This document shows positions 4,950 to 7,636 of a stretch of 64,000 nucleotides of DNA, one piece after another. The position numbers and the translations under genes are program-made. Every line of letters starts with the position of its first letter. Within the stretch, counting starts at the first letter, position 1. The notes beneath the pieces were generated by a model that saw only the letters and a program-made list of their open reading frames with translations, made no database searches and was not told the DNA's origin. The stretch is from Escherichia coli. Lineage in GTDB: Bacteria; Pseudomonadota; Gammaproteobacteria; Enterobacterales; Enterobacteriaceae. Location of the stretch: assembly GCF_003334315.1 (NCBI RefSeq), contig NZ_QOWR01000017.1; one strand, written 5' to 3'.

Positions 4950-6158
4950 TCAGGCGTCGCGTTCAAGCAAACGACGCGCGGCGCGTTTCTGGCTAAACTG
5001 CCAACCCAGCGCAAGGAAAGTGAAGATGCCAATAATGCCCAGCATCATCCACGGAAGCTCTGGCTGGTGCGCCGATTTGCCCAGGTCAAACAGCCAGCCG
5101 CCACCGATATAACCAATAGCGCCGCCAATCGCCAGACCCAGACGGCTAAACCCCATATAGCTGCCGCGAGCTCTTGCGTCCGCCAGCGAAGCACTTAAGG
5201 TTTCACGCGCAGGCTCGGCAATGATCGACCCGATATAAAACAGACAAATCAGGGTGAAAAGTTGTTGCAGGCCGCTGACCATGCCCACCGGCATCATGCT
5301 TAATGACATTATCAACAGCCCAGCCATCAACCGGTGTTCCAGGCGAAAATGCTTTTCACTCCAGCGGGCGATAGGATAGAGCAACGTTAACGACAGACAC
5401 GCTTCAATGGCATACATCCATTTAACGGCAGAGGGCGCGCCCGCCACGTCGTTGACCATAATTGGCAGCATCAGCATCACTTGAACAGCCAGCATGTAGT
5501 AACCCGCCAGCGTCAGGACATAGGTGACAAAACGCTTGTCGCGCATCACGCGGGTCATGCCTTCGCGAACGGGCGTGCGTACGGTGGAGAGTTTCCATGC
5601 CGGTAATAACCACGCATTGAACGCTGCACACAGTACAAACAAAACGGCCCCTGTGGCGCAGACCAGGCGAAAGTCGTATTGCAACAGCCAGCTCCCCAAC
5701 AATGCGCCAATGACCGCACCGGCACTGTCCTGCATCATCAACAGCGAGAAAAAACGACCACGTTGTTGTGGACGGATTAGTTTCACCACCAGCGCCGAAC
5801 GCGGCGGATCAAACAACGTGCCGCCGAGTCCCGAAAGCAGGCATGAAAACCACAATAGCCACGGTTCGTGGGCGATACCCATTGTGGCGAATCCGGCGGC
5901 ACGCATCAGCATACCGGTAACAATCATCGGTTTGGCACCAAAGCGGTCGGCAATTGCGCCGCCGAAAATACCCAGACCTTGCTGAATAAATTGGCGTAGA
6001 CCGAGAGCAATACCGACCATGACGGCGGCCCAGCCCATTTGATCAACGAAGCGGATAGAGATCAGCGGGAAGACAACAAAGAACCCCAGCACGACCAGCA
6101 TATTATCGATGAGCAGGAAATATTTACCCAGGTTCCTCGCCTGCGACACGCGGGACAT
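4950..6158 (-). CDS. mdtH: MFS multidrug transporter MdtH
   Basis: ORF 4950..6188 trimmed to [16 protein letters not shown] (402 aa); multi-TM hydrophobic protein. Confidence 0.9.
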
Positions 6159-6393
6159 TTCCCCTCCCGGGAAATAAAAGATGAGCACTTTCTATTCTGC
6201 ATTGCCGCTAAGACTTTTCCCATCACTTCGGGGACAATATTTTTTTATCAAAACGTCGCTTTGATAGAGAGTTTTTATCAAATATGTGAATAATGCAGAA
6301 AATGGCATTTTGGACTTTTCACAGGGTCTGGTTGCGCAGGTATAGTAATACTTACAGCGTATTAAAGACGTTACGGGAAGGAGTAGGTATAGA

Positions 6394-7636
<1,243 letters not shown>

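What the first reader, a model, noticed from the sequence alone, without database searches (positions are those of the whole stretch)
6242..6282. Direct and inverted TTTTTATCAAA repeats in the mdtH-rimJ divergent promoter spacer
tttttatcaaa occurs twice (6242-6252 and 6272-6282), and the first copy forms an inverted repeat with tttgataga (6260-6268): TTATCAAA-N7-TTTGATAG. This looks like a dimeric regulator site between the divergent mdtH and rimJ genes; I cannot assign it to a known regulator.
Basis: seen in the sequence. Interest (0 to 1): 0.2.

Follow-up and report, generated by a model that had tools for sequence, protein, structure and literature searches.

The report
Conserved upstream element of mdtH/rimJ promoters
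The two TTTTTATCAAA repeats are real and lie in a strongly conserved stretch of DNA between the start sites of an E. coli efflux-pump gene (mdtH) and a ribosome-modifying gene (rimJ); this is most likely an ordinary promoter-upstream control element whose binding partner is still unidentified.

Summary
TTTTTATCAAA occurs at 6242-6252 and 6272-6282, and TATCAAA/TTTGATA form an inverted repeat. The window is E. coli. Published start-site mapping puts the mdtH TSS at 6186 (-) and the rimJ TSS at 6354 (+), so the repeats lie in untranscribed DNA between two divergent sigma-70 promoters.

Comparison of about 80 Enterobacteriaceae species changes the picture. Copy 1 sits inside a 21-bp block, GACAATATTTTTTTATCAAAA (6233-6253). 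Its 17-bp core is identical in 68 of 75 species, with pairwise identity 0.99 against 0.37-0.44 for neighbouring spacer. The core also survives in Yersinia and Serratia, always 39-40 bp from the mdtH -10 element.

Copy 2 and the right inverted-repeat arm are less conserved (0.81-0.84). They are absent in Yersiniaceae and deleted in Kluyvera and Intestinirhabdus. The exact 11-mer duplication exists in only 5 of 75 genomes.

The A/T tract matches the distal UP-element consensus at -48 to -58 of the weak mdtH promoter. No recalled regulator consensus fits. My best reading is an UP-like or activator site for mdtH, partly shared with rimJ. A specific unknown regulator remains a serious rival. This is an ordinary kind of element and of modest interest.

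The parts
6233..6253 (.). Block A, GACAATATTTTTTTATCAAAA. It is a nearly invariant 21-bp block containing repeat copy 1. It lies at -47..-67 of the mdtH TSS and -121..-101 of the rimJ TSS.
   Evidence: Pairwise identity is 0.972 across 75 species, and 58 of 75 are identical. It is single copy in all 5426 E. coli genomes.
6233..6249 (.). 17-bp core, the quasi-palindrome GACAA-N7-TTATC. It reads GATAA-N7-TTATC in Yersinia and Serratia. Its A/T tract matches UP-element subsites.
   Evidence: It is identical in 68 of 75 Enterobacteriaceae and conserved in 6 Yersiniaceae loci plus L169.
6242..6252 (+). Direct repeat copy 1, TTTTTATCAAA.
6260..6269 (.). Block B, TTTGATAGAG.
   Evidence: Pairwise identity is 0.805, and the GAT and GAG positions are 90-100% conserved. 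It is absent in Yersiniaceae and deleted in Kluyvera and Intestinirhabdus.
6272..6282 (+). Direct repeat copy 2, TTTTTATCAAA, also called block C. It lies at -82..-72 of rimJ and -86..-96 of mdtH.
   Evidence: Pairwise identity is 0.838 and the consensus is T.T.ATC(A/G)AA.
6217..6222 (-). mdtH -35-position hexamer, TGGGAA. It matches the consensus at 3 of 6 positions and is conserved as TTTTCCCA on the + strand.
   Evidence: The position is derived from the TSS.
6194..6199 (-). mdtH -10 hexamer, CAGAAT, at -13..-8.
   Evidence: The distance to block A is 39-40 bp in 69 of 69 loci.
6186..6186 (-). mdtH transcription start site, NC_000913.2:1124577.
   Evidence: Kim et al. 2012, PMC3415461, supplementary file 2.
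6318..6323 (+). rimJ -35 hexamer, TTCACA.
6341..6346 (+). rimJ -10 hexamer, TATAGT.
6354..6354 (+). rimJ transcription start site, NC_000913.2:1124745.
   Evidence: Kim et al. 2012, supplementary file 2.

Best explanation
The repeats are part of a roughly 50-bp, indel-free, conserved upstream regulatory module (6233-6283) lying between two divergent sigma-70 promoters.

Its core is block A (6233-6253). Block A sits at -47 to -67 of the mdtH promoter, which has a weak core (TGGGAA-17-CAGAAT). I infer that its A/T tract (AAAAAAATATTGT on the mdtH strand) acts as an UP-like element. It would dock the C-terminal domain of the RNA polymerase alpha subunit, possibly together with a still unidentified activator that reads the invariant GAC and ATC flanks. 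That would stimulate transcription of mdtH.

The T-run plus ATC half of the block is also kept upstream of rimJ at near-integral numbers of helical turns. It probably contributes to rimJ expression as well.

What is shown: the sequence features, their conservation, their spacing and their position relative to mapped TSSs. What is inferred: alpha-CTD or activator binding and its effect on transcription.

My confidence that this is a functional cis-regulatory element is about 0.9. My confidence in the UP-like mechanism specifically is about 0.45.
For: Mapped TSSs place block A immediately upstream of the mdtH -35 position. The -35 hexamer matches the consensus at only 3 of 6 positions, which is typical of promoters that need upstream help.

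The mdtH-strand sequence at 6244..6234, AAAAATATTGT, matches the distal UP core AAAWWTWTTTT at 10 of 11 positions. It lies at -58..-48, against the canonical -57..-47. Only 10 hits at one mismatch or fewer exist on both strands of the 64-kb window, and 3 of them are in block A.

Among about 30 recalled consensus patterns, only the UP patterns beat shuffles of the spacer, at P about 0.02-0.06.

The distance from block A to the mdtH -10 is 39-40 bp in 69 of 69 Enterobacteriaceae loci. It is 40 bp in Yersinia and Serratia, although the intervening -35-region sequence differs there. The distance to rimJ elements varies from 40 to 129 bp.

Where mdtH is lost, in Kluyvera, the mdtH-proximal part GACAATA decays.

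Y. pestis tolerates a T-run 2 bp shorter. That fits an A-tract function better than a fixed-spacing dimer site.

The core 17-mer has pairwise identity 0.989, against 0.37-0.44 for flanking spacer.
Against: An UP element read through the minor groove should tolerate A/T-for-A/T changes. It also does not explain the invariant GAC and ATC flanks, or the conserved AAAA extending to -67.

The proximal UP subsite at -46..-38 is G/C-rich and variable. In the canonical register the distal match is only 8 of 11.

The T-run plus ATCA is retained and conserved in five Kluyvera species that lack mdtH. The block therefore cannot serve mdtH alone.

Blocks B and C are conserved within Enterobacteriaceae, and an UP element does not explain them.

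The UP consensus was recalled from memory (Estrem et al. 1998, 1999). No binding or expression experiment exists for this site.
Confidence: 0.45

Rival explanations
1. The module is an operator for a specific, still unidentified oligomeric transcription factor. Two similar 17-bp dyads of the form GA(C/T)-N11-ATC lie at 6233-6249 and 6263-6279, 30 bp apart and so on roughly the same helical face. Equivalently, hexamers GACA / TATCAA / TTGATA / TATCAA recur at exact 15-bp intervals. A dimer-of-dimers would bind these and co-regulate mdtH and rimJ.
For: Every position of block A is invariant, including the non-A/T flanks. The palindrome is perfect in Yersinia and Serratia, GATAA-N7-TTATC.

The GAT and ATC positions of the second dyad are 90-100% conserved. 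There are no indels between the elements in 75 species.

The module centre, about 6271, lies at -85 and -83 of the two TSSs. The repeated unit extends to 15 of 21 identities, GA.A.....TTTTTATCAAA.
Against: No recalled regulator consensus fits better than chance. This covers CRP, FNR, Fur, IHF, Fis, Lrp, LexA, ArcA, PhoP, CpxR, ArgR, PurR, Cra, the marbox, LsrR and others.

No regulator gene is adjacent. Conservation of the two dyads is very unequal, 0.99 against about 0.8.

The second dyad is absent in Yersiniaceae and is deleted in Kluyvera and Intestinirhabdus without loss of rimJ. Y. pestis changes the dyad spacing by 2 bp.

No second copy of the site exists in E. coli genomes.
Confidence: 0.33
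2. The module is a site for a nucleoid-associated protein such as Fis, IHF, Lrp or H-NS, or it is intrinsically curved A-tract DNA. Either would give rimJ growth-phase control like that of a ribosomal promoter.
For: A rimJ reporter behaves like ribosomal promoters, being switched on when growth resumes (PMC3918108).

Three WATCAA cores of the IHF consensus are present. The T-runs at about 6243, 6274 and 6316 are roughly in helical phase. The ATC of block A lies 3.8-12.3 near-integral turns from the rimJ -10 in six lineages.
Against: The TTR part of the IHF consensus is absent or not conserved. The Fis and Lrp consensuses do not beat shuffles, and no G-N13-C frame exists.

Copy 2's T-run is not an A-tract in most genera, for example TTCTC and TATTC. 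Degenerate nucleoid-protein sites and curvature do not require 17 invariant positions.

The helical-phase pattern is only suggestive. I estimate P at about 0.06-0.2.
Confidence: 0.1
3. The module is the operator of LsrR, the autoinducer-2 quorum-sensing repressor, which is reported to repress mdtH directly.
For: His-tagged LsrR shifted a probe spanning 6160-6393, and mdtH mRNA rose in an lsrR mutant of an avian pathogenic E. coli strain (PMC7597812).
Against: The shift needed 1-8 micromolar protein, with only self-competition as a control. The probe is the whole spacer, so the site is unmapped.

The canonical boxes of the lsrR-lsrA spacer, TGAACA-N21-TGTTCA, which I read directly from the K-12 sequence, have no counterpart here. 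The best match has 4 of 12 mismatches, no better than shuffles.

Motifs reported as essential at cysN, TCCG and GGAAAA, point to the mdtH -35 region (GGGAAAA, 6221..6215), not to the repeats.
Confidence: 0.04
4. The repeats are chance repeats in an A/T-rich spacer and have no function.
For: Five 11-mer direct repeats within 60 bp occur in this 64-kb window alone. The 17-mer core occurs many times by chance in low-GC metagenomic DNA. The exact duplication is limited to Escherichia and one Citrobacter.
Against: Conservation is 0.97-0.99 across genera, where neighbouring spacer is at 0.37-0.44. Spacing is fixed. The core is retained across two families.
Confidence: 0.02

Closest known systems
UP element of rrnB P1 and other sigma-70 promoters (consensus nnAAAWWTWTTTTnnAAAAnnn, -59 to -38; recalled from Estrem et al. 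1998, 1999)
   Same: It is an A/T-rich tract directly upstream of the -35 position of a mapped promoter. It matches the distal subsite core at 10 of 11 positions and matches AAAAAARNR at 9 of 9. Its distance to the core promoter is fixed across species.
   Different: The register is 1-2 bp upstream of canonical. There is no A/T-rich proximal subsite. Conservation extends to -67 and includes invariant G/C-containing flanks. The gene is a minor efflux pump, not a highly expressed gene.
Interrupted-dyad operators of dimeric or tetrameric regulators, for example the LysR-type T-N11-A boxes and the NodD ATC-N9-GAT box (recalled)
   Same: The core has the form GA(C/T)-N11-ATC with an A/T-rich centre. 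A second similar dyad lies 30 bp away. It sits in a divergent promoter region.
   Different: No LysR-type or other regulator gene is adjacent. The centres lie at -55 and -85, not -65 and -35. The T-N11-A pattern carries almost no information. The second dyad is dispensable in several lineages.
IHF site (WATCAANNNNTTR, recalled)
   Same: TATCAA occurs three times, at 6246 (+), 6266 (-) and 6276 (+). An A/T tract adjoins the first copy.
   Different: The TTR element is missing or not conserved at all three sites.
LsrR boxes of the lsrR-lsrA spacer (TGAACA-N21-TGTTCA, read)
   Same: It lies in a divergent promoter region, and LsrR is reported to shift the spacer in an EMSA.
   Different: There is no sequence resemblance, and the reported binding is unmapped and needs micromolar protein.
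Fur box (GATAATGATAATCATTATC, recalled)
   Same: The Yersinia and Serratia form begins GATAAT and ends TTATC.
   Different: The arms are 2 bp closer together. The best 15-mer Fur match in the E. coli spacer has 4 of 14 mismatches.

Membership tests
UP element (alpha-CTD binding site) | A/T-rich sequence matching the distal subsite consensus (AAAWWTWTTTT or AWWWWWTTTTT) | tested here: met
   6244..6234 (-) reads AAAAATATTGT, 10 of 11. 6236-6246 (+) reads AATATTTTTTT, 11 of 11 to AWWWWWTTTTT. Such matches are rare in the window and P is about 0.02 in spacer shuffles.
UP element (alpha-CTD binding site) | Location at about -57 to -47, just upstream of the -35 element of a real promoter | tested here: met
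   With the published mdtH TSS at 6186 the match lies at -58..-48. In the exact canonical register it is 8 of 11. The spacing to the -10 is constant at 39-40 bp in two families.
UP element (alpha-CTD binding site) | A/T-rich proximal subsite at -46 to -38 | tested here: not met
   6224-6232 is G/C-rich and variable, with pairwise identity 0.43.
UP element (alpha-CTD binding site) | Stimulation of transcription that depends on the alpha C-terminal domain | not testable with these tools
   This needs in vitro transcription or reporter assays.
   TATCAAA/TTTGATA is 7 of 7 in E. coli but 4-7 of 7 across 75 species. The left arm is invariant and the right arm has identity 0.8. The alternative dyad GAYAA-N7-TTATC within block A is conserved, but its spacing changes in Y. 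pestis.
   About 30 recalled consensuses, including the marbox, are no better than shuffles.
LsrR operator | TGAACA-N21-TGTTCA-type box as in the lsr spacer | tested here: not met
   The lsr spacer was read. The best match in the mdtH-rimJ spacer has 4 of 12 mismatches, and 52% of shuffles do as well.
LsrR operator | Direct binding of LsrR | not testable with these tools
   The literature EMSA is positive only for the whole spacer at 1-8 micromolar protein.
IHF site | WATCAA core followed by NNNNTTR | tested here: not met
   The core is present three times, but the TTR is absent or variable.
FNR/CRP-type site | TTGAT-N4-ATCAA or TGTGA-N6-TCACA spacing | tested here: not met
   The half-sites are 9 or more bp apart and in the wrong relative order. 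The best matches have 3 mismatches and do not beat shuffles.
MarA/SoxS/Rob marbox | AYNGCACNNWNNRYYAAAY | tested here: not met
   There is no hit with 3 or fewer mismatches inside 6159-6393.
Structured RNA element | Transcribed and folded, or matching a known RNA family | tested here: not met
   The region lies upstream of both TSSs. There is no Rfam match at E of 1 or below. The fold z-score is 0.13.

The most novel reading that the evidence does not exclude
Block A and its partial duplicate would be the operators of an as yet unassigned, highly conserved Enterobacterales DNA-binding protein. That protein would couple expression of an efflux pump (mdtH) with a ribosome-maturation and acetylation operon (rimJ-yceH).

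One concrete candidate is YceH itself. It is the DUF480 protein encoded directly downstream of rimJ in Enterobacteriaceae and in most Yersiniaceae loci examined. Its solved structure (PDB 5VYV) has no assigned function. Its weak fold neighbours are winged-helix regulators of the Fur, PerR and MarR families, plus ScpB (the model was of low confidence). I put YceH specifically at about 0.03 probability.
Probability: 0.1. Interest if true: 0.5.

Novelty: new member of a known kind. Interest (0 to 1): 0.27.

Why it matters
mdtH encodes a fluoroquinolone efflux pump. rimJ encodes a ribosomal-protein acetyltransferase and 30S assembly factor. In the literature I could search, no paper mentions the two genes together, and the only reported interaction with the spacer is an unmapped LsrR gel shift.

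The 17-bp block is as conserved as the core promoter elements across two bacterial families. That makes it a precise, cheap target for mutagenesis or pull-down experiments. Such experiments could explain how this pump is switched on, and whether pump and ribosome-modifier expression are linked.

It is nonetheless a conventional promoter-upstream element in a well-studied genome, not a new kind of system.

Tried and rejected
Known-regulator assignment: I scanned the spacer with about 30 consensus sequences recalled from memory. These included CRP, FNR, Fur, IHF, Fis, Lrp, LexA, ArcA, DnaA, PhoP, CpxR, ArgR, PurR, Cra, H-NS, NsrR, OxyR, MetJ, TyrR, NarL, KdpE, SdiA, AraC and the NodD type, plus the marbox. 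Only the UP patterns stood out, along with, marginally, a DnaA-like box outside the repeats.

LsrR: I fetched the K-12 lsrR-lsrA spacer and found no similarity to the mdtH-rimJ spacer.

Alternative promoters using TTGATA as a -35, and sigma-28, sigma-E or sigma-54 promoters: I checked these by eye. No conserved -10 lies at the right spacing, and no extra TSS is in the Kim et al. table.

RNA or cruciform structure: there is no Rfam hit and the fold z-score is 0.13.

Regulon search: the 37-mer around block A is single copy in all 5426 E. coli genomes. A metagenome scan for GAYAATATTTTTTTATCB returned more than 120 mostly chance hits in low-GC organisms, and only one further mdtH-rimJ locus.

Literature: no paper contains both mdtH and rimJ. 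ChIP-exo and Reg-Seq papers and their supplements had no entry for mdtH, rimJ or yceH. One search was badly designed and wasted.

Helical phasing of block A relative to rimJ is suggestive only.

YceH as regulator: the structure model was of low confidence (pLDDT 65). It gives only weak winged-helix resemblance, so this remains speculation.

Klebsiella TSSs for the orthologous genes were not found in the held supplement.

Full report
**1. The observation**

The window is E. coli. An 801-bp stretch around the finding matches all 5426 complete E. coli genomes, and the flanking genes are annotated mdtH (- strand) and rimJ (+ strand). The mdtH start codon is at 6158..6156 and the rimJ ATG at 6394, so the spacer is 6159-6393, 235 bp.

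TTTTTATCAAA occurs at 6242-6252 and at 6272-6282. These are the only two copies in the window, against 0.05 expected. TATCAAA (6246-6252) and TTTGATA (6260-6266) are perfectly complementary with a 7-nt gap.

An 11-nt direct repeat within 60 bp appears in 0.35% of dinucleotide shuffles of the spacer. However, five such pairs exist in the window, so the repeat alone is only mildly unusual.

**2. Position relative to transcription**

The supplement of Kim et al. 2012 (PMC3415461) lists two relevant start sites:
- An mdtH TSS at NC_000913.2:1124577 (-), with a 28-nt leader.
- A rimJ TSS at 1124745 (+), with a 40-nt leader.

Both upstream sequences printed there match the window. They place the TSSs at 6186 (-) and 6354 (+). 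The core promoters are therefore:
- mdtH: TGGGAA (6222..6217), a 17-bp spacer, then CAGAAT (6199..6194).
- rimJ: TTCACA (6318-6323), a 17-bp spacer, then TATAGT (6341-6346). The consensus scan also found this one.

The repeats lie between the two -35 elements in DNA that is not transcribed. Copy 1 is at -56..-66 of mdtH and -112..-102 of rimJ. Copy 2 is at -86..-96 of mdtH and -82..-72 of rimJ.

No Rfam family matches the region. The strand has no unusual folding, with a z-score of 0.13.

**3. Phylogenetic footprint within Enterobacteriaceae**

A scan of one genome per species returned 80 rimJ loci. They cover Escherichia, Salmonella, Citrobacter, Klebsiella, Raoultella, Enterobacter, Kosakonia, Kluyvera, Leclercia, Trabulsiella, Phytobacter and others. 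Nearly all have divergent mdtH.

Copy 1 is embedded in a 21-bp block, GACAATATTTTTTTATCAAAA (6233-6253).

| Segment | Window coordinates | Mean pairwise identity |
|---|---|---|
| Block A, 17-bp core | 6233-6249 | 0.989 (68 of 75 identical) |
| Block A, 21-mer | 6233-6253 | 0.972 |
| Adjacent spacer segments | 6223-6232, 6254-6259, 6283-6294 | 0.37-0.44 |
| Block B, TTTGATAGAG | 6260-6269 | 0.81 |
| Copy 2 | 6272-6282 | 0.84 |

In blocks B and C the invariant positions are mainly GAT, GAG and T..ATC.AA.

There are no indels between 6233 and 6283 in any of the 75 species. The exact 11/11 duplication exists in only 5 genomes, with 8-10 of 11 in the others.

**4. Which gene does the block belong to?**

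The distance from block A to the mdtH -10 is 39 or 40 bp in 69 of 69 scorable loci. The distance to the rimJ -35 region is 83-86 bp. Within the family both distances are fixed.

Natural rearrangements break the tie:
- **Kluyvera** (five species) has lost mdtH and grxB, so yceB is the upstream neighbour. There, blocks B and C are deleted and GACAATA has decayed. TTTTTTATCACAATGCA is kept and conserved.
- **Intestinirhabdus** keeps mdtH. It keeps AATATTTTTTAT at the usual distance from TTTTCCCA but has lost blocks B and C.
- **Escherichia sp. ESNIH1** (locus L077), by contrast, carries a deletion of about 40 bp that removes the rimJ -35 region; its spacer is 192 bp against the usual ~235.

I recalled the Y. 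pestis MdtH sequence and confirmed it at 100% identity. With it I fetched Yersinia, Serratia and Edaphovirga loci. In these:
- mdtH and rimJ are again divergent neighbours, except in Y. enterocolitica, which is rearranged.
- The core survives as GA(T/C)AATATTTTTTTATC, followed by GTCAATAYGTTA instead of AAAA.
- Blocks B and C are absent.
- The core lies 40 bp from the element CAAACT, which aligns with the E. coli -10 CAGAAT. The sequence at the -35 position is different there (CTATCG).
- Its distance to the rimJ -10 is 107-129 bp, against 94-95 in Enterobacteriaceae.

The ancestral, positionally constrained partner of block A is therefore the mdtH core promoter.

The T-run plus ATC half also seems to matter for rimJ. 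It persists in Kluyvera without mdtH. In six lineages it lies 3.8, 4.95, 5.1, 9.0, 10.2 and 12.3 helical turns from the rimJ -10. That pattern is near-integral but statistically only suggestive.

**5. What could bind it?**

I scanned the spacer with about 30 regulator consensuses recalled from memory, plus the marbox. Only the UP-element patterns beat shuffles:
- AWWWWWTTTTT, 0 mismatches, at 6236-6246 (+), P about 0.02.
- AAAAAARNR, 0 mismatches, at 6246..6238 (-), P about 0.06.
- The full UP core, 2 mismatches.

The distal UP core AAAWWTWTTTT with one mismatch or fewer has only 10 hits on both strands of the window. Three of them are in block A. The mdtH-strand hit, AAAAATATTGT at 6244..6234, lies at -58..-48. 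That is one base from the canonical -57..-47, next to a -35 hexamer that matches the consensus at only 3 of 6 positions. This is the classical setting of an UP element.

Points against a pure UP element:
- The proximal subsite is G/C-rich and variable.
- The invariant GAC and ATC flanks, and the absence of any A/T-for-A/T change in the T-run, are more than minor-groove reading by alpha-CTD should require.

The core is also a quasi-palindrome. It reads GACAA-N7-TTATC in Enterobacteriaceae and is perfect, GATAA-N7-TTATC, in Yersinia and Serratia. A second dyad of the same form (GAT-N11-ATC, 6263-6279) lies 30 bp away in Enterobacteriaceae. Equivalently, GACA / TATCAA / TTGATA / TATCAA recur every 15 bp. 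This keeps a specific oligomeric regulator as a serious rival.

That rival is weakened by several facts:
- The two dyads are very unequally conserved.
- The second dyad is lost in several lineages.
- Y. pestis has a T-run 2 bp shorter.
- No adjacent regulator gene exists.
- There is no second copy of the site in E. coli.

**6. Literature**

No held paper mentions mdtH and rimJ together.

LsrR was reported to shift a probe that is the entire spacer (6160-6393). This needed 1-8 micromolar protein, with self-competition only. The same paper reports that LsrR represses mdtH (PMC7597812). QseB did not shift the same probe (PMC7102498).

I read the canonical LsrR boxes in the K-12 lsrR-lsrA spacer, TGAACA-N21-TGTTCA. 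Nothing similar is present here. Motifs reported as essential for LsrR at cysN, TCCG and GGAAAA, would point to the mdtH -35 region rather than to the repeats.

A rimJ reporter behaves like ribosomal promoters during exit from lag phase (PMC3918108). ChIP-exo and Reg-Seq papers had no entry for these genes.

**7. Verdict**

The repeats are real and lie in a functional, conserved upstream regulatory module. My confidence in that is about 0.9.

It is the 17-21-bp block A, positioned at a fixed distance upstream of the weak mdtH promoter.

The most likely mechanism is UP-like recruitment of the RNAP alpha subunit to the A/T tract, possibly with an unidentified activator that reads the flanks. A secondary contribution to rimJ is probable. 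I put this at about 0.45. A specific unknown regulator binding two dyads is the main rival, at about 0.33. LsrR, nucleoid proteins or curvature, and chance are less likely.

This is a new, uncharacterised member of a well-known kind of element. Interest is modest. The block is a sharply defined target for a simple experiment.

**8. Speculative extension**

YceH is encoded just downstream of rimJ in Enterobacteriaceae and in most Yersiniaceae loci examined. It is a DUF480 protein with solved structures but no known function. A low-confidence model gives only weak similarity to winged-helix regulators and to ScpB. Nothing links it to the site except synteny. I give this about 3%.

Noticed in passing
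window 6247-6249 and 6224-6233; loci L091 and L092: Two of 5426 E. coli genomes carry insertion sequences in this spacer. ISApl1 (IS30 family) sits directly after block A's ATC in NZ_OX442407.1, with 6247-6249 duplicated. IS1A sits between the mdtH -35 and block A in NZ_CP063511.1, with 6224-6233 duplicated. These are natural mutants that separate block A from one or the other promoter.
   Followed up: partly
window 6285-6293 (- strand): TGTGAATAA is the complement of TTATTCACA. That is a full match to the relaxed DnaA-box consensus TTWTNCACA and one mismatch from TTATCCACA. It lies just downstream of copy 2. It is conserved in Escherichia and Citrobacter but not in Salmonella or Klebsiella.
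   Followed up: partly
window 6212-6222 and 6313-6323: GACTTTTCCCA covers the mdtH -35 position on the opposite strand. GACTTTTCACA is the rimJ -35. They are same-strand direct repeats 101 bp apart, and both are conserved as TTTTC(C/A)CA across genera. A 16-nt imperfect inverted repeat, TGTGAATAATGCAGAA / TTTTGGACTTTTCACA (6285-6300 and 6308-6323), also ends on the rimJ -35.
   Followed up: no
loci L035, L045, L046, L062, L071 (Kluyvera): Kluyvera species lack both mdtH and grxB between yceB and rimJ. They retain a decayed relic of the mdtH promoter region. K. ascorbata (L046) also seems to lack the rimJ -10 region.
   Followed up: partly
loci L012, L016, L034, L038, L055, L072, L078, L079; aligned to window ~6176: Insertions of about 20-200 bp, G/C-rich and REP-like in appearance, occur only on the mdtH 5'-UTR side of the spacer. 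They never occur between the two core promoters. The distance from the mdtH start codon to block A ranges from 75 to 284 bp.
   Followed up: no
locus L082 (Y. pestis / pseudotuberculosis type), 417-1122: yceH was not called as a gene and no intact ORF is listed. Yet tblastn aligns YceH residues 1-215 in one frame with about 20 extra columns. It may be a disrupted or mis-called gene. The same locus has the T-run of block A shortened from 7 to 5.
   Followed up: partly
locus L085 (Y. enterocolitica), upstream of mdtH: Homology to other Yersinia spacers stops right at the putative mdtH -10 region. An inverted repeat, TATAGTTTG...CAAACTATA, marks the breakpoint. rimJ is not within 1 kb and block A is absent. 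This suggests an insertion or rearrangement.
   Followed up: no
window 6385-6392 and 6338-6345: AGGTATAG occurs twice. One copy overlaps the rimJ -10 (TATAGT). The other lies immediately before the rimJ start codon in the Shine-Dalgarno region.
   Followed up: no
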